Shown: piece by piece, positions 3,567-35,590 of the stretch
Numbering within the stretch: position 1 is the stretch's first letter
Layout: each line of letters starts with the position of its first letter
IMG/VR virus record: IMGVR_UViG_3300042870_001240
DNA: 64,000 nucleotides
Reading direction: 5' to 3' (one strand)
DNA from: a virus
Taxonomy: Duplodnaviria; Caudoviricetes
Translations under genes and position numbers: made by a program
The notes under the pieces: model-generated
Told to the model about the DNA's origin: nothing
Database searches by the model: none
What the model saw: only the letters and a program-made list of their open reading frames with translations

Positions 3567-3649
3567 ATTTATATCAAATAAATACTTTGAAAATTTGTTA
3601 TCGTCAGATTTATTCGTATATTTGTAAAACAATAGTTCTTTAACATCAT

Positions 3650-4063
3650 GGGGGTAAATTGGAATTGACTGACATAGTTGGTTGTTCGGGGCATGTCAAG
3701 GCTGAGCTAACCTTGTAAAACTGGTTTAAATCGATATACGGCAACGTTATCAACAAACTTTCTGCAGTAGGATTAATCCGCACTGAAGAAAATGTTTCAG
3801 TAGCCTAAGGCGAAAAAAACAACGGGTAGATAGACTTATACCTAGGAACAGAACAGTCTTCATGGTGTGACATCTACCATAAAAGGTGTAAACTCTAACC
3901 AATCAGAGGATAATCAGATGGCAGAGGATAAGTTCTCAGTAAACCGAACTGTATAATAAGGGAACTGTGGGATTTCGGATTGTTAGATTAAACAATGACC
4001 TAAACATGTAGTCCTTAATAATCGTTATGGACAACTACGAGGGTTCGAGTCCCTCTATCTCCA
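3650..4063 (+). ncRNA. ssrA: tmRNA
   Basis: 5' GGGGGTA pairs with 3' TATCTCC-A including G3:U. 5' GGAATTGAC, T-arm GAGGG-TTCGAGT-CCCTC. Internal tag ORF 3740-3808 (GNVINKLSAVGLIRTEENVSVA*). Promoter TATATTTG at 3617-3624. Confidence 0.93.
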
Positions 4064-4120
4064 CATTTAACATTTTTGTTCTTTTACTATATTTTGAAAT
4101 ATTTATAGTGAAAGAACAAA

Positions 4121-4801
4121 ATGCCAAGAAAAAAACCTAATTTCCACTATATCTATAAAACCATTTGTAATTTTAATCAAAAATACTATATCGGAATGCA
4201 CAGCACATCTAATTTAGAGGATGGGTATATGGGTAGTGGTAAAAGATTAAGATATTCAATAAGAAAGTATGGTAAGGATAACCACACTAAAATTATTATA
4301 GAGTTTTTACCTAACAGAGAATCATTAAAAGAACGTGAAATTGAAATTGTTAATTCGGATTTATTATTAGATGAAAATTGTATAAATCTTAAAACAGGTG
4401 GTTATGGTGGAGGGAAATTTTATTCTGAAGAACATAAATTAAAATGTTCTAAATCCGGTAATGAAATGTTTTTAAAAAAAATGCAAGATGAGGAGTATCG
4501 GAAAGAGTTTTCGAAAAAATTAAGTAATGCTTATAAAAAACAAGTTCTTGAAGGTAAACGAGAAAAAAAATATTTTTACCATTGGAATGGGAAAACTCAC
4601 ACAGATGAATCTAAACAAAAAATGAGTGAAGTGAAGAAAGGGACTGGTATTGGTATTAAAAATTCACAATACGGGACTTGTTGGATAACTAAAAATAACG
4701 AAAATAAAAAAATTAAAAAGACTGACATTAATCTGTATTTAGATGATGGATGGGTTAGAGGTAGAAATACAGGTATAACCAAAAAGATAACTAAAGTATA
4801 A
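4121..4801 (+). CDS. Free-standing GIY-YIG homing endonuclease (Seg-like) with NUMOD3-like DNA-binding motif
   Basis: YIYKT...KYYIGMH...YMGSG...E pattern; HTDESKQKMSEVKKG motif. Confidence 0.85.
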   Translation: MPRKKPNFHYIYKTICNFNQKYYIGMHSTSNLEDGYMGSGKRLRYSIRKYGKDNHTKIIIEFLPNRESLKEREIEIVNSDLLLDENCINLKTGGYGGGKFYSEEHKLKCSKSGNEMFLKKMQDEEYRKEFSKKLSNAYKKQVLEGKREKKYFYHWNGKTHTDESKQKMSEVKKGTGIGIKNSQYGTCWITKNNENKKIKKTDINLYLDDGWVRGRNTGITKKITKV

Positions 4802-4802
4802 T

Positions 4803-4836
4803 AAAAAACCCCACCTGTTTAGGATGGGGTTTTTTT
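4803..4836. terminator. Bidirectional intrinsic terminator
   Basis: AAAAAACCCCA...TGGGGTTTTTTT between convergent genes. Confidence 0.8.
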
Positions 4837-4837
4837 G

Positions 4838-5137
4838 TTAGGATTTAAATCCCTCAATGATTTGTAATAGTTTGTCAGCTCGTTTGTCAGTATGACTTTT
4901 AGATTCTTGATGAAGTTCATCGATACGTCTATAGATGTGGTCAACAGTAACGTCTAACTCACGTTTATTTTCGTCTAAAATTCTTTGGTCGTAATCAACA
5001 TCTCTTTCATAAGATATTCTGAAATCTTCCAAATCTTTTTTTGTTCTAACAACCTTAACTAACCCCCAAACAAGAGCAACAATAAAAATTATTGCAATAA
5101 TCGAAAGGACACCTAAAGTAAAATAAAATGTTTCCAT
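4838..5137 (-). CDS. Membrane-anchored coiled-coil hypothetical protein (start probably ATG 5137)
   Basis: N-terminal hydrophobic helix followed by a charged helical region. Confidence 0.65.
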   Translation of the reverse strand: METFYFTLGVLSIIAIIFIVALVWGLVKVVRTKKDLEDFRISYERDVDYDQRILDENKRELDVTVDHIYRRIDELHQESKSHTDKRADKLLQIIEGFKS

Positions 5138-5206
5138 TATTTTAAGATTTTGTTTTTTATACCTCAAGGGTAATAAAATATAATGGAGAGTGTAGAAAAA
5201 GGAAAT

Positions 5207-5250
5207 AAAAAAAAGGGAGATAATGATGGCTAGTCAAAATCTCCCTTTTA
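5207..5250 (-). terminator. Intrinsic terminator ending the GOLLD-like/tRNA-Met transcript
   Basis: Minus strand AAAAGGGAGAT...ATCTCCCTTTTTTT. Confidence 0.7.
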
Positions 5251-5636
5251 GCCTAAACATTGTCACTCGGTAAGTTCAACCCGAGGTAGTGATTAGTGAA
5301 ACCTCTACCTAACTTCTATCGTGAGTTGTGATTGGTGTACGACCTAAACGTTTGTATGTTTATTACCCTTTATTAATTTTAAGACTTAAAGGGAACGTGG
5401 TTATAACAAAATCCACATCCTATAAAAAAAGTCCTGACAATTTTTACCACTATATCACCTCAGGTTGTCGTGTCAAAGACAGATTGGTACTTATTACTTT
5501 TTATATTTTCTATGAGGTAGAATCGTGAAGTCACAAGATAAAACAAACACGCAAAGACCCAAATCATTATGTTTTCCTTCAGTTTAAACTCGTGGTGGGT
5601 GTTATGATTTAAAAAAACACGTACGGAGTCACTTAG

Positions 5637-5709
5637 TTGCGGGAGAAGGATTCGAACCTCCGACCTAAAGGTTATGAGCCTTTCGAGCTACCAACTGCTC
5701 TATCCCACT
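5637..5709 (-). tRNA. tRNA-Met(CAT), initiator-like; CCA not encoded
   Basis: Full cloverleaf, anticodon loop CTCATAA, 1:72 mismatch (A:A), A11:U24, A73. Confidence 0.92.
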
Positions 5710-5726
5710 ATATTTGGCTATAAATA

Positions 5727-6590
5727 AGGCTGAGATTACACCTGTTTATGAGAAACTTTAGTAGGATTATTGATTCCCCACATATCCACTTCCTTTTGAG
5801 AAGTATTCCTCAGTGACGATTGGTTAGACCAATCACTTCTTGAGATATCAGTTACTCTCTTATTACTTAACTCTCTTCAAAGATGCCTCTCCGACTCTTC
5901 CTTATGGGAATAGAGGTTTTTGGTAAGAATACAGTCAGACTTGCGGTCTTCATGTGCAATGAACGGCTCATTACTATGTAGTCACCTTTCACTGATACCT
6001 AACGGACACTTTTGCTTATTTTTAGTTAATTTTACTTAATTTAGTATAAGTTACGTGTTGTGGATGAATCAAAGTAGCGGTCCGTTGAAGGATTCGTTCT
6101 CTTTTGGAAAACGAAATACCAAACTACTCCGTGAGATGTCCCCATCTCCATATTTTAAGATTACTTCGTACCAAGACTTTGGTAAGTCTTTGATAAGGAC
6201 AGTAGCGACACCACTCGTTCTCTATCTTACCTTTCGGTTTTAAGTCCCCTCTTATATTGGTAACCGCAATCATGTAGTTGGAGACCACATTTTTTGCTTG
6301 ATACCTATGGGTTATTCTTATTGGAGTTCCCTCCTCAGACTGACAATCCACATTGCCGTTCCACCCAACCACTTTCCCTAAAGCGTTGCCCTCAGTACTA
6401 AAGGTCGGATGATATCCCACTTGTGTACTCGACCTCGGTTTCCCAAGACGCGAACCTACTAACACTTGAAGATTCACTTTATCCCACTTTCGTGGTTTAT
6501 TTAACGACCATACACGGCCGATTATCTTTTTTCAGTTATCTCAGAATCAACCCGAAGGTCTCATCATAAACATCCTGATGGATAATACAA
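5727..6590 (-). ncRNA. Large ornate structured RNA, probably GOLLD class
   Basis: About 860 nt with no credible ORF. Many GC stems capped by GNRA/UUCG loops (accUUCGggt, ccacGAAAgtgg, accGAAAggt, gaccGCAAgtc). 3' end GGUGUAAUCUCAGCC abuts a tRNA, as recalled for GOLLD. Class assignment is from memory, not a covariance search. Confidence 0.7.
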
Positions 6591-6594
6591 TAAT

Positions 6595-7075
6595 TCAAAG
6601 AACATATCGGACGTTTCCGATTTTGTTTTACAAAGATAGTAAACTTTTTTGATTTACCAAATCTTTTTTTGTTTTTTTTTGAGATTAGGAAACCACGATT
6701 TTACAACTAACTGTCAACCCATTCTCATTTTGTTTTACAAAGATAAGACATTTTTTTCAATCTGTCAAATCTTTTTATGGTTATTATAACTGATGCGGTA
6801 ACATATTTCATTTACACTTTAAATGCGAAGGAGTCCCGTAGTCACTTTCCTCACATACAACAGTAGCCCTACGGACCTAGACTGTTTCTATAACCAATTT
6901 CTTCAAAGAACTAAATCAGACGTTCCCGATTTGTTTTACAAAGATAGTAAACTTTTTTGATTTACCAAATTTTTTTTTGTTTTTTTTTAAAAGAACTTTT
7001 TTAAATAAAAAAGGTATTGTATAAATATCACCACTTCTTTCAAATGTTTTACAAAGGTAATAAAAAAATTTTATC
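6595..7075 (-). promoter_or_regulatory. Four tandem Bacteroidota sigma-A type promoters, two followed by boxA-like sites
   Basis: TATCTTTG at 6631-38, 6738-45 and 6939-46; TACCTTTG at 7052-59; each followed by TAAAACA. GTTCTTTGA at ~6595-6603 and ~6903-6911. Blocks ~6620-6680 and ~6930-6985 are near-identical. Confidence 0.75.
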
Positions 7076-7194
7076 TGACAAGACCTGTAGGTTATTTTTT
7101 TATAAAAAATAAATTTAAAAAGAAAAAGTGACGAATAAGTCGACTTATCGTAAATAAACACGTATTTATTTATACAAATAAAAACAACAAATTT

Positions 7195-7347
7195 ATGAAA
7201 AAAGTAATTTTCGCAATAGTAATTGCAGGTAGCGTAATGTTATCATCATGCGGTGGTTCAACCACAAAATGTGAAGTCTCATCGACTGATACAACAACAG
7301 TTGATTCTGTGGTAACTCAAACAGTCGACACCGTTAAAACAAAGTAA
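7195..7347 (+). CDS. Small lipoprotein, 50 aa (not in ORF track)
   Basis: MKKVIFAIVIAGSVMLSSC lipobox followed by a Thr-rich tail GGSTTKCEVSSTDTTTVDSVVTQTVDTVKTK. Confidence 0.8.
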   Translation: MKKVIFAIVIAGSVMLSSCGGSTTKCEVSSTDTTTVDSVVTQTVDTVKTK

Positions 7348-7356
7348 TTAGTTTAG

Positions 7357-7384
7357 TCCCCTTAGAAATAAGGGGATTTTTTTT
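7357..7384. terminator. Intrinsic terminator
   Basis: TCCCCTTA-GAAA-TAAGGGGA plus T-tract. Confidence 0.75.
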
Positions 7385-7952
7385 AATGGTTAATTAATTT
7401 TTTTATTTTATTAATTTCCTCTTTAATAAGTGGGTTACCATTTATAATATTTTCCTTAAAAAACGCATTACCAACAACACCAAATGGTAACGCAATTAAA
7501 TCAATGAATGGATTTCGGGTTTTACCTGTTCTATAAGTGGATGTAGATTTAGTTTCCTTTTCCTTTTTATTCTCAACGTCTTTTTCTCCACCGTTAGATG
7601 TTACAATATTTCCTGATAAAAATTTATTGGCATCAATCTTATCATTATTCTTATCCGTCACCGCATACTCAATTGGAGAATCTCCAACAGTCCCAATAAT
7701 ACTCCCTTGTTTAACTTTATCCCCAACAAATGACATTATTCGATTAACCTTACAAAAATTAGAGAAATAAGTATTACCATTAATATTATGAGCAATTTTA
7801 ATATTACCGTCACATTTAAATTTATCTGAAGATACAACAACACCTTCTGATGGGTTACGTATTACGTCAGAATTATATGAAGAGAACTCAATTGTTTTTG
7901 AAAACATCGGAGAACTTATTCTGGCATTTGGTAATGGATTTAAAATCTTCAT
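7383..7952 (-). CDS. M23 (LytM)-like domain protein, probably catalytically degenerate
   Basis: GVVV...IKIAH...VGDKVKQGSIIGTVG pattern, but the HxxxD and HxH zinc motifs are absent. Confidence 0.6.
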   Translation of the reverse strand: MKILNPLPNARISSPMFSKTIEFSSYNSDVIRNPSEGVVVSSDKFKCDGNIKIAHNINGNTYFSNFCKVNRIMSFVGDKVKQGSIIGTVGDSPIEYAVTDKNNDKIDANKFLSGNIVTSNGGEKDVENKKEKETKSTSTYRTGKTRNPFIDLIALPFGVVGNAFFKENIINGNPLIKEEINKIKKLINH

Positions 7953-33637: not shown

Positions 33638-33669
33638 ACCTCAAAGATACAAAAAAAATCGATATAAAC

Positions 33670-33702
33670 AAAAAACCCCTAAAAATAATTCAGGGGTTTT
33701 TT
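33670..33702 (-). terminator. Terminator after dnaK
   Basis: AAAAAACCCCT...AGGGGTTTTTT. Confidence 0.75.
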
Positions 33703-33718
33703 GACAATGTGGATTAGG

Positions 33719-35590
33719 TTACTTATTATTCACCTCTTCAAATTCGACATCGGAACCATTAAATTCCACATCACCTGTTTGGTCATTAACCTGGTCATAC
33801 AGGTCCTGTGAAATCTTTTGGAATTTTAGATTCACCTCATCAACTAATGATTTGGATAATTCTACGTCCTTTTTACTGTGAGCCTCTTTTAATTTTTCAA
33901 GAGTTGACGTTATCTCAGACTTTTGTTCTTCGGATATTTTACCTTCCAAATCAGTTAACGATTTTTCAACGTTAAAAATTGTGCTGTCTGCGATATTAAT
34001 TGCGTCAGCATCTTCTTTTGCTTTTTTATCAGACTCAGCATTAATTTCGGCCTCCTTTTTCATTTTTTCAATCTCCTCTTTAGATAATCCTGAAGAAGAT
34101 TCAATTCTAATTGATTGTTGTTTGTTTGTTGCTTTATCCATTGCCGAAACATTTATAATACCGTTAGTATCAATATCAAAAGTAACTTCAACTTGAGGAA
34201 CACCTCTCATCGCAGGTGGTAAGCCATCTAAATGGAATCTACCAATAGTTCGGTTATCTCTAACCATACTCCTTTCTCCCTGCAAAACGTGAATTTCAAC
34301 TGACGGTTGATTATCAACTGCCGTTGAGAATACCTGTGACTTCTTAGTTGGAATCGTGGTATTTGATTCAATTAGTTTTGTGAATACTCCACCCATTGTT
34401 TCAATACCCAAAGATAATGGTGTTACGTCTAATAACAATACATCTTTTACGTCTCCCGCTAATACACCACCTTGGATTGCCGCACCAAGAGCGACCACCT
34501 CATCAGGGTTAACTCCTTTTGAAGGTTCTTTACCAAAGAACTTTTTAACCGCATCTTGTATTGCCGGGATTCTTGTTGTTCCACCAACAAGGATAACCTC
34601 ATCAATATCAGAAACCTTAAGTTTTGCATTTTTCAATGCCGTTTTACAAGGTTCAATGGTTCTTTTAATTAAGTCGGCAGAAAGTTGTTCAAACTTTGCT
34701 CTCGTTAATGTTTTTACCAAGTGTTTTGGTCCAGTTGCATCGGCACTTAAATAAGGTAAGTTGATTTCTGTCTGAGGAGATGATGATAATTCAACCTTTG
34801 CTTTTTCAGCACCTTCTCTTAACCTTTGTAATGCCATAGCGTCTTTTGAGATATCTAAACCACCATTATCGTTCTTGAATTCCTCAACCAAGAAATCAAT
34901 AATGACTCTGTCAAAGTCATCACCACCTAAATGAGTATCCCCATCGGTAGATAATACCTCAAACACCCCATTACCAAGGTCTAATATAGATACGTCATGT
35001 GTACCACCTCCACAGTCAAATACAACGATTTTCATGTCTTTTGACATCTTATCAAGACCATACGCCAACGCCGCGGCGGTAGGTTCATTGATTATACGTC
35101 TAACAATTAATCCAGCAATTTCACCAGCTTCTTTAGTCGCTTGACGTTGTGCGTCGTTAAAATACGCAGGTACGGTAATAACCGCCTCAGTAACTTCAGT
35201 CCCCAAATAATCTTCAGCGGTTTGTTTCATCTTTTGAAGAATCATTGCCGAAATTTCTTGTGGTGAATACAATCTATCTTCTATAGATACTCTTGGTGTG
35301 TTCCCGTCACCTTTAACTAATTTATACGGAACTCTACCAACCTCACCTTTACTTTCGTCAAATGTTAAACCCATAAATCGTTTGATTGAGTAAACCGTTT
35401 TTTCAGGGTTTGTTACCGACTGTCTTTTTGCAGGGTCTCCGATTTTTCTTTCACCACCATTAATGAATCCAACAATTGAAGGGGTGGTTCTTTTTCCTTC
35501 ACTGTTTGTAATAACGACAGGTTCTCGTCCTTCCATGACCGTTACGCACGAATTTGTAGTTCCTAAATCTACTCCTATTATTTTTCCCAT
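33719..35590 (-). CDS. dnaK: Hsp70 chaperone DnaK
   Basis: [40 protein letters not shown]. Confidence 0.97.

What the first reader, a model, noticed from the sequence alone, without database searches (positions are those of the whole stretch)
5727..6590. ~860 nt GOLLD-like giant RNA in a probable Bacteroidota jumbo phage, abutting tRNA-Met
Seen: a long non-coding, tetraloop-rich region whose 3' end lies 17 nt from the tRNA 5' end. Established: GOLLD RNAs are ~800 nt, phage-associated, often next to tRNAs, and of unknown function. Inference: RNase P cleavage of the tRNA would release the mature 3' end. The family call rests on recalled 3'-end motifs.
Basis: partly seen in the sequence, partly recalled or inferred. 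Interest (0 to 1): 0.7.

Follow-up and report, generated by a model that had tools for sequence, protein, structure and literature searches.

The report
GOLLD cage RNA in lake phage
This is a genuine full-length copy of GOLLD, a known giant phage RNA that assembles into hollow RNA-only cages and still has no known job; here it lies in a large freshwater phage of Bacteroidota, apparently in one transcription unit with a tRNA and a second conserved RNA.

Summary
Rfam's GOLLD model (RF02032) matches the minus strand at 6131..5727 end to end, with 319 bits against a cut-off of 150. That model covers only the 3' 405 nt. The remaining 455 nt (6586..6132) are a 5' domain shared with 18 distinct phage sequences. 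It forms 21 helices: 97% of cells pair, and 62 of 97 pairs show compensatory changes.

The RNA core is 860 nt. The 117-aa ORF inside it is not conserved.

Upstream lie a Bacteroidota-type promoter, a covarying hairpin and an invariant boxA-like GTTCTTTGAA. The tRNA(CAT) starts 17 nt after the GOLLD 3' end, with no terminator between them. A conserved stretch of about 390 nt and the first intrinsic terminator (5245..5207) follow. Co-transcription and RNase P release are therefore likely, but inferred.

Relatives without the tRNA carry a terminator 35-70 nt after GOLLD.

The phage and host call is supported indirectly by promoters, a Flavobacteriales-like DnaK, and the same protein on contigs of 0.2-1 Mb.

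This is a new member of a known family. The scan has reported GOLLD before on other DNA (33 notes). Interest is modest.

The parts
6939..6969 (-). Distal upstream Bacteroidota-type promoter word (TTTG-N19-TAtcTTTG). It is a near-identical duplicate of the proximal one and has its own GTTCTTTGA at 6911..6903.
6738..6769 (-). Middle upstream promoter word (TTTG-N20-TAtcTTTG)
   Evidence: also listed as sigma-70-like
6631..6661 (-). Proximal promoter of the GOLLD unit: TTTG (-33), 19 nt, TATCTTTG (-7). The predicted start is near 6625.
   Evidence: 10 matches in the window against 2.7 +/- 1.5 in shuffles. Conserved in most aligned relatives. The start site is inferred, not observed.
6606..6621 (-). 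Leader hairpin ATCGGA-AACG-TCCGAT
   Evidence: 6-bp stem. The stem changes on both sides in relatives, e.g. ATCAGG/CCTGAT, TTCGG/CCGAA and TTACTC/GAGTAA in LR745206.
6594..6603 (-). boxA-like word GTTCTTTGAA
   Evidence: Invariant in 19 of 19 aligned sequences. A Flavobacteriales 16S leader has promoter, short hairpin and AGTTCTTTAAAA in the same order.
6132..6586 (-). GOLLD 5' domain, not covered by the Rfam model: P1, a variable first hairpin and about 20 conserved helices
   Evidence: 97 pairs in 21 helices, 97.1% of cells paired, 62 pairs with changes on both sides against 32.5 in shuffles and 12-20 when slid.
5727..6131 (-). Part of GOLLD modelled by Rfam: the P13/P14 hairpin with CAAAA loop, the A/U-rich linker (about 6076..6010, no tRNA inside) and the conserved 3' domain, including both P21 hairpins (loops CAUAA 5906..5902 and GGCA 5887..5884)
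   Evidence: (319.1 bits, E 1.4e-90, full model). Helix numbers are my mapping from the text.
5710..5726 (-). 17-nt A/U-rich spacer between the GOLLD 3' end and the tRNA, with no hairpin or terminator
5636..5709 (-). tRNA with anticodon CAT
   Evidence: 60.9 bits; ARAGORN.
5246..5635 (-). Conserved non-coding trailer RNA that begins with AAGTGACTCC directly after the tRNA
   Evidence: Alignments A2 and A3 of six sequences from two clades. nhmmer finds it in 12 loci with scores of 390-433, and a diverged copy in four more.
5207..5245 (-). First intrinsic terminator after GOLLD: stem GGGAGAT...ATCTCCC (5245..5215) and a run of eight T (5214..5207)
   Evidence: The stem changes on both sides in the second clade (GGAAGAA/TTCTTCC). 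The scan missed it because the loop exceeds 8 nt.

Best explanation
The region is a gene for a full-length GOLLD RNA. The core is 860 nt, at 6586..5727 on the minus strand. It has the complete, env-38-like set of helices: a large 5' domain and a 3' domain with both P21 hairpins.

Proposed mechanism, step by step:
1. The host RNA polymerase starts at a Bacteroidota-type promoter (6661..6631). Two more promoters lie further upstream.
2. The transcript opens with a small hairpin and a boxA-like word. This is the layout of a ribosomal RNA leader, which would protect a long untranslated transcript from premature termination.
3. Transcription runs through GOLLD, the 17-nt spacer, tRNA(CAT) and a conserved trailer RNA of about 390 nt, to the terminator at 5245..5207.
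4. RNase P cuts at the tRNA 5' end and frees GOLLD with a short 3' tail. tRNA 3' processing frees the trailer.
5. By homology with the solved GOLLD structures, the freed RNA should assemble with copies of itself into a closed RNA-only cage of 12-14 chains. In that cage the 5' domains form the caps and the linker faces inward.

Shown here: family membership, the covarying 5' domain, the order of the parts and the absence of a terminator before 5245.

Inferred: the start site, co-transcription, the RNase P step, antitermination and cage assembly. The cargo or purpose of the cage is unknown for the whole family.
For: - Family: RF02032 at 319.1 bits (cut-off 150), model 1-416, and the only large-RNA family hit in the region even at E up to 1.
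- 5' domain: shared with 29 IMG/VR loci (18 distinct sequences including the window's) and the 635-kb phage LR745206. RNAalifold gives 192 pairs over the whole RNA, 118 of them with compensatory changes. For the 5' domain alone, 0 of 500 shuffles reach any measure, and slid controls fall to 36-42% paired.
- Expression signals: the promoter word is enriched and sits before the RNA genes and several protein genes. GTTCTTTGAA is invariant behind a covarying hairpin. A Flavobacteriales 16S leader has the same layout.
- One unit: there is no terminator-like site between 6600 and 5250 on the minus strand apart from the leader hairpin. The terminator at 5245..5207 is conserved, with compensatory changes.
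- tRNA adjacency recurs. A tRNA-Met lies 10-18 nt after GOLLD in L054, L057 and its copies, L033/L025 and L060. A tRNA-Glu lies at +16 in L032/L046. Relatives without the tRNA have a canonical terminator 35-70 nt after GOLLD, so the mature 3' end lies near CUCAGCCU in both layouts.
- Cage: env-38 GOLLD forms a 14-mer and S. agalactiae GOLLD, which lacks P9, P11a-c and P21b, a 12-mer. The window RNA aligns through both P21 hairpins and the conserved L14, L24, L26 and L27 loop words. What I take to be the self-pairing dinucleotide of loop L21a reads AU here, GC in most relatives and CG in LR745206, all self-complementary.
- Transcription: six lake metatranscriptome runs from five studies hold 28-46% of the sampled words of 5200-7200.
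Against: - No transcript start, end or processing site was observed. Metatranscriptomes can also carry phage DNA.
- The tRNA or the trailer could have a promoter of its own. A sigma-70-like site lies at 5476..5449, though promoter-like sites are no more frequent here than in shuffles.
- boxA function is inferred from resemblance only. The exact 10-mer is not next to the 16S genes of two Bacteroidota genomes, and only a one-mismatch version was seen in one of them.
- Cage stoichiometry cannot be read from sequence. An A-U kissing dinucleotide would be weaker than G-C.
- My assignment of helix numbers to the Rfam structure line comes from text, not from the published figure.
Confidence: 0.88

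Rival explanations
1. GOLLD and the tRNA are made separately. On this view GOLLD ends by nuclease trimming or weak termination in the U-rich tract right after CUCAGCCU. The tRNA and the trailer RNA are then read from a start of their own, so RNase P plays no part in making the GOLLD 3' end.
For: Relatives without a tRNA also have a U/A-rich tract directly after the GOLLD 3' end, so a common tRNA-independent way of forming the end is possible. Most window-type GOLLD genes are stand-alone units with their own terminator.
Against: Only 17 nt separate the two genes, which is no room for the 31-nt Bacteroidota promoter word. None was found there. The P27 stem is 3 bp, too weak for an intrinsic terminator. 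The tight spacing of 10-18 nt recurs with two different tRNA identities.
Confidence: 0.15
2. The DNA is not from a free jumbo phage. It would instead be a prophage or a tRNA/RNA island in a low-GC Bacteroidota chromosome or MAG.
For: GOLLD also occurs in prophages and in chromosomal tRNA arrays. The window holds cell-like genes: DnaK, a ClpB-like ATPase, a GAF-PAS histidine kinase and ThyA. No capsid, portal or terminase gene was identified among the window proteins I scanned. No close match exists among deposited phage genomes.
Against: An identical stretch lies in an IMG/VR viral contig. The DnaK is only 72-76% identical to any bacterial one. Many ORFs have no family, and there are a homing endonuclease, a T4-type RNA ligase and an endolysin. 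The nearest 5'-domain relative in the phages collection is a 635-kb phage. Earlier notes of this scan describe T4-type head genes elsewhere on the same contig, which I did not check.
Confidence: 0.08
3. The stretch 6124..6477 encodes a 117-aa protein, and the apparent RNA structure is incidental.
For: An open frame of 117 aa from GTG (135 stop-free codons) exists on the minus strand.
Against: There is no Pfam hit. The frame is broken or shifted in all relatives below about 90% identity. Their longest open stretches lie at other places and on other strands. Substitutions follow base-pairing, not codon positions. The 3' end of the ORF overlaps the start of the GOLLD CM match.
Confidence: 0.01

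Closest known systems
GOLLD RNA, env-38 form (Rfam RF02032; 833 nt; cryo-EM 14-mer nanocage, PDB 9MEE; bioRxiv 10.1101/2024.12.08.627333)
   Same: Full CM match. The size is similar (860 nt against 833). It has a large 5' domain plus a conserved 3' domain, both P21 hairpins and an A/U-rich linker. It is phage-borne, aquatic and lies next to a tRNA-Met.
   Different: - Here the tRNA lies downstream of GOLLD. env-38 is described as lying downstream of its tRNA-Met, as is the copy in LR745206.
- What I take to be the L21a central dinucleotide is AU rather than GC or CG.
- I could not compare the 5' domain with env-38 directly, because no sequence was available to the tools.
- Assembly is untested.
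Streptococcus agalactiae prophage GOLLD (about 700 nt; 12-mer, PDB 9L0R; review PMC12990946)
   Same: Same family and the same conserved 3' domain.
   Different: The streptococcal form lacks P9, P11a-c and P21b and is about 160 nt shorter. The window RNA keeps P21b and has a larger 5' domain, so it is closer to the env-38 type.
Mycobacterium tRNA-array GOLLD with a tRNA inside the J13/15 linker (Morgado et al. 2020, as cited)
   Same: Tight physical coupling of GOLLD with tRNA genes.
   Different: In the window the linker (about 65 nt) holds no tRNA, and the tRNA follows the 3' end. Linker tRNAs do occur in other IMG/VR loci (L019, L023, L032, L043).
Bacterial ribosomal RNA operon (tandem promoters, leader with boxA, large RNA, spacer tRNA, second large RNA, terminator)
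   Same: The same order of parts: several promoters, a hairpin plus a boxA-like word, a large structured RNA, a tRNA released by RNase P, a second structured RNA and a terminator. A Flavobacteriales 16S leader shows promoter, hairpin and AGTTCTTTAAAA.
   Different: None of the RNAs is ribosomal. Antitermination is inferred from the motif only. Most relatives carry GOLLD alone between the leader and a terminator.
ROOL RNA (phage and prophage RNA forming 6- to 8-mer cages)
   Same: A large ornate phage RNA near tRNA genes that forms RNA-only cages.
   Different: The sequence and fold are unrelated. No ROOL hit was found in the window.

Membership tests
GOLLD RNA (Rfam RF02032) | Covariance-model score at or above the curated gathering score over the whole model | tested here: met
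   319.1 bits against 150, model positions 1-416 of 416, E 1.4e-90, accuracy 0.98.
GOLLD RNA (Rfam RF02032) | Two-part build: a conserved 3' domain preceded by a large, more variable, structured 5' domain, more than about 700-800 nt in all | tested here: met
   The core is 860 nt. The 5' domain has 21 helices with 62 of 97 pairs compensatory. This 5' domain is not detected in the more distant GOLLD loci L004, L019, L023, L032 and L043, which fits a variable 5' half.
GOLLD RNA (Rfam RF02032) | Non-coding | tested here: met
   The internal ORF is not conserved and has no family.
GOLLD RNA (Rfam RF02032) | Phage or prophage location next to tRNA genes | tested here: met
   tRNA(CAT) lies 17 nt downstream. 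A tmRNA and further tRNAs lie within 10 kb. Viral origin is supported indirectly.
GOLLD RNA, env-38-like subtype (14-mer) | Presence of P21a and P21b, with self-complementary loop words | tested here: met
   Both hairpins align to the model. The loops are CAUAA and GGCA. The central dinucleotide is AU, GC or CG across relatives. The helix naming is my mapping from text.
GOLLD RNA | Self-assembly into a closed homo-oligomeric cage | not testable with these tools
   This needs in vitro transcription with mass photometry or cryo-EM. It is inferred from homology only.
GOLLD RNA | Expressed as a stable RNA, rising late in infection | tested here: inconclusive
   Six metatranscriptome runs hold 28-46% of the words of a 2-kb stretch around it.
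rRNA-type antiterminated stable-RNA operon (works-like comparison, not membership) | boxA word in the leader behind the promoter, matching the host's rRNA leader | tested here: inconclusive
   GTTCTTTGAA is invariant in 19 of 19 sequences. The exact word is not next to 16S in two Bacteroidota genomes. One Flavobacteriales 16S leader has AGTTCTTTAAAA after a promoter and hairpin. The other leader is unclear.

The most novel reading that the evidence does not exclude
In this phage lineage GOLLD does not act alone. It would be the first cistron of a dedicated stable-RNA operon built like an rRNA operon: leader with boxA, GOLLD, an initiator-like tRNA(CAT) and a conserved trailer RNA of about 390 nt. 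Its cage would work together with the co-made tRNA and trailer RNA, for example by holding or delivering them during takeover of host translation. That would give the first functional partners for GOLLD.
Probability: 0.15. Interest if true: 0.6.

Novelty: new member of a known kind. Interest (0 to 1): 0.3.

Why it matters
GOLLD is one of the largest bacterial and phage RNAs without a known function. Its cage structure was solved only recently, on environmental and streptococcal sequences that lack a tractable natural setting.

This copy adds no new kind of RNA, but it offers three things:
- A well-populated clade, with 18 distinct close sequences plus a 635-kb phage, and a fully covarying 5' domain.
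- Clear expression signals.
- A recurring fixed arrangement with a tRNA and a second conserved RNA, in a phage common in lake metagenomes and present in metatranscriptomes.

These are useful handles for asking what GOLLD does. As a family call, though, it is ordinary: GOLLD was first found in lake metagenomes, is known to be phage-borne and is known to sit beside tRNAs.

Tried and rejected
- Whole-genome search: no genome is held for this window.
- Megablast of 7000-30000 against phages and tblastn of a 573-aa ORF: no match, so the phage has no close deposited relative.
- The 16-mer AGGTGTAATCTCAGCC as a GOLLD probe: not specific. Of 19 doubtful loci only 5 carry a GOLLD at the Rfam cut-off. 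L013 and L014 are cut short upstream and cannot be judged. L029, L055 and L056 were not tested.
- nhmmer profiles built from the window's clade: too narrow to recognise the distant GOLLDs that the CM finds.
- Exact boxA word near 16S genes: negative in two Bacteroidota genomes. A one-mismatch version was then seen by eye in one leader.
- Coding reading of ORF 6124..6477: rejected.
- Other RNA families: none reaches E of 1 or better within GOLLD, the tRNA, the trailer or the promoter region. The only weak hits lie at 4800-4919, far below their cut-offs.
- Literature search for GOLLD in Bacteroidota or jumbo phages: no paper on this was found in the held library.

Full report
**Observation**

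A search of the whole window against Rfam at gathering thresholds gives one large-RNA hit. It is GOLLD (RF02032) on the minus strand at 6131..5727, with 319.1 bits against a cut-off of 150. The E-value is 1.4e-90, all 416 model positions are matched and the accuracy is 0.98.

- A more permissive search of 4800-7500 finds no other family within GOLLD, the tRNA, the trailer or the promoter region. The only weak hits lie at 4800-4919, far below their cut-offs.
- ARAGORN and Rfam both place a tRNA with anticodon CAT at 5709..5636.

**The half that Rfam does not model**

The Rfam model covers only the P13/P14 hairpin, the linker and the conserved 3' domain, 405 nt here. I tested the upstream 455 nt by comparison.

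- A blastn search of phage genomes found 70.6% identity between 6305-6512 and the 634,780-bp uncultured phage LR745206. That phage carries its own GOLLD at 287 bits just downstream of the match.
- An exact-word scan of IMG/VR with the GOLLD 3' end brought in 58 loci.
- 29 of these loci share both domains with the window. L049 is identical to the window over the 529 bases compared.
- Nineteen distinct sequences align from promoter to 3' end (alignment A1).
- RNAalifold predicts 192 pairs, 118 of them with compensatory changes.

For the 5' domain alone, the covariation test gives the following:

| Measure | Observed | Shuffles (500) | Partners slid by 1-3 columns |
|---|---|---|---|
| Pairs / helices | 97 / 21 | - | - |
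| Cells paired | 97.1% | mean 84.0%, reached by 0 of 500 | 36-42% |
| Pairs with changes on both sides | 62 | mean 32.5, reached by 0 of 500 | 12-20 |

Other points on the 5' domain:
- The single-sequence fold of the 898-nt transcript has z = -4.65.
- Five consensus hairpins end in GNRA tetraloops, and the variable first hairpin ends in UUCG. "Tetraloop-rich" is therefore correct.
- The 117-aa ORF at 6124..6477 has no family and is not kept open in relatives.
- P1 (ATTATC with GATAAT) starts at 6586. LR745206 changes it on both sides (TTACA with TGTAG), as I read. The core is 860 nt.

**Signals around the gene**

- Upstream lies TTTG-N19-TATCTTTG at 6661..6631. From my own knowledge this is the Bacteroidota promoter consensus (-33 TTTG, -7 TAnnTTTG).
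- The word occurs 10 times in the window against 2.7 +/- 1.5 in shuffles. The sites include positions in front of the tmRNA, the RNA ligase gene, DnaK and another RNA locus. Two further copies lie at 6769..6738 and 6969..6939.
- Behind the promoter come a 6-bp hairpin (6621..6606), whose stem covaries, and the word GTTCTTTGAA (6603..6594). That word is invariant in all 19 sequences, LR745206 included.
I tested it in part. The exact 10-mer is not beside the 16S genes of two Bacteroidota genomes. One Flavobacteriales 16S leader does show promoter, short hairpin and AGTTCTTTAAAA in the same order. The other leader is unclear.

**Downstream, and the RNase P idea**

- There is no terminator-like site between GOLLD and the tRNA. 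Seventeen nucleotides leave no room for a promoter.
- After the tRNA comes a conserved non-coding stretch. It begins with AAGTGACTCC and ends in a hairpin (5245..5215) with eight T (5214..5207). The hairpin stem covaries between two clades. This terminator is the first one after the promoter.
- nhmmer finds the trailer in 12 loci. These are the ones with a tRNA-Met after GOLLD, or a degenerate tRNA-like remnant in L041. It also finds a diverged copy about 640 nt behind GOLLD in the L040 group.
- Ten other distinct relatives have neither tRNA nor trailer. Instead they carry a canonical terminator 35-70 nt after GOLLD. My loci do not bear out "always".
- A tRNA 10-18 nt after the GOLLD 3' end recurs with two identities: Met in the window's clade and Glu in L032/L046.
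- Other GOLLDs carry a tRNA inside the linker instead (L019, L023, L032, L043), as the literature describes.
- Co-transcription and release of GOLLD by RNase P is thus the simplest reading. It is still an inference. All I can say is that six lake metatranscriptome runs from five studies hold 28-46% of the sampled words of 5200-7200, and 14 lake DNA runs hold 87-96%.

**What it most likely does**

- Published cryo-EM shows GOLLD env-38 (833 nt) as a closed 14-mer. The 5' domains form the caps and the linker faces inward.
- The shorter S. agalactiae GOLLD lacks P9, P11a-c and P21b, and forms a 12-mer.
- The window RNA aligns through both P21 hairpins and through the conserved loop words of L14, L24, L26 and L27.
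- The central dinucleotide of the loop I take to be L21a is AU in the window's clade, GC in most relatives and CG in LR745206. All three are self-complementary, as a symmetric kissing loop requires. The published variation is GC and CG.
- I therefore expect an env-38-like cage. The stoichiometry and the cargo cannot be derived from sequence, and the function of the family is unknown.

**Phage and host**

The window has no close relative among deposited phages. I found no capsid or terminase gene among the 29 ORFs scanned. Several lines nevertheless point to a large phage:
- It holds a GIY-YIG endonuclease, a T4 Rnl1-type RNA ligase, an endolysin, ThyA, many ORFs without a family, and a tmRNA.
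- An identical stretch lies in an IMG/VR viral contig.
- The exact RNA ligase protein occurs in 66 blocks of the assembly collection, two of them with contigs of 0.2-1 Mb.
- Its DnaK is 72-76% identical to those of freshwater Flavobacteriales. 78 of the 80 best genomic matches carry Bacteroidota names.
- Together with the promoter word, this supports a large phage of freshwater Bacteroidota. Earlier notes of the scan say the same from T4-type head genes elsewhere on the contig, which I did not check.

**Verdict**

This is a new member of a known family, found in the habitat where the family was first discovered. The scan has reported GOLLD on other DNA many times (33 notes). The added value is the defined full-length clade, the expression signals and the fixed GOLLD-tRNA-trailer arrangement.

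Noticed in passing
window 5636-5709 (-): Read by eye, the tRNA(CAT) has initiator-like features: an A1 x A72 mismatch at the top of the acceptor stem, A11:U24 in the D stem, and two of the three G:C pairs of the anticodon stem. The relatives L054, L057 and L033 seem to have a U x U mismatch at 1:72. No CCA is encoded in the window copy.
   Followed up: partly
window 5246-5635 (-): A conserved non-coding RNA of about 390 nt lies between the tRNA and the terminator. It matches no Rfam family and is present in 12 loci, plus a diverged copy in four more. Only two clades are available, so its structure is weakly supported (67 predicted pairs, 19 compensatory).
   Followed up: partly
window 3594-4066 (+): A phage tmRNA (78.6 bits) has a Bacteroidota-type promoter word at 3594-3624. 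It lies 1.1 kb from the end of the GOLLD unit. L043, from a 343-kb IMG/VR contig, also combines GOLLD, a tRNA array and a permuted tmRNA.
   Followed up: no
window 9345-13047 (-): A cluster that looks like RNA repair lies beside the RNA genes:
- T4 Rnl1-type RNA ligase (9345-10376)
- calcineurin-like phosphoesterase (10420-11070)
- cyclic-phosphate-processing receiver domain protein (12625-13047)

Between them sits a short (336 aa) adenylosuccinate-synthetase-like protein (11121-12131). It hits the PHROG named for the PurZ-type enzyme of 2-aminoadenine phages.
   Followed up: no
window 15065-15152 (-): A weak tRNA hit (32.5 bits, 88 nt) that ARAGORN does not call. It may be a long-arm or otherwise unusual tRNA.
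   Followed up: no
window 4121-4801 (+): A GIY-YIG/NUMOD3 homing-endonuclease-like ORF lies between the tmRNA and the GOLLD unit, on the opposite strand.
   Followed up: no
window 6779-6911 (-): The distal promoter copy has its own GTTCTTTGA (6911..6903). A stretch of about 115 nt follows, before the next promoter. It is probably a small RNA, and earlier notes say the same.
   Followed up: no
L009:3502-4460 (+): This relative's GOLLD lacks about 60 nt of the 3' domain, from the P22 hairpin to L26 (my numbering). It is either a natural deletion variant or an assembly fault.
   Followed up: no
L041:4200-4295 (-): Where its sisters have tRNA-Met, this locus has a degenerate tRNA-like remnant that ARAGORN does not call. 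The trailer RNA behind it is intact.
   Followed up: no
L014:2092-2294 (+): A group I intron hit (65.7 bits) lies beside a tRNA array in a 214-kb IMG/VR contig. The locus was fetched by the GOLLD end word.
   Followed up: no
window 33719-35590 (-): A phage-encoded full-length DnaK (Hsp70, 846 bits) is 72-76% identical to Flavobacteriales DnaK. A Bacteroidota promoter word lies at 33672..33642.
   Followed up: partly
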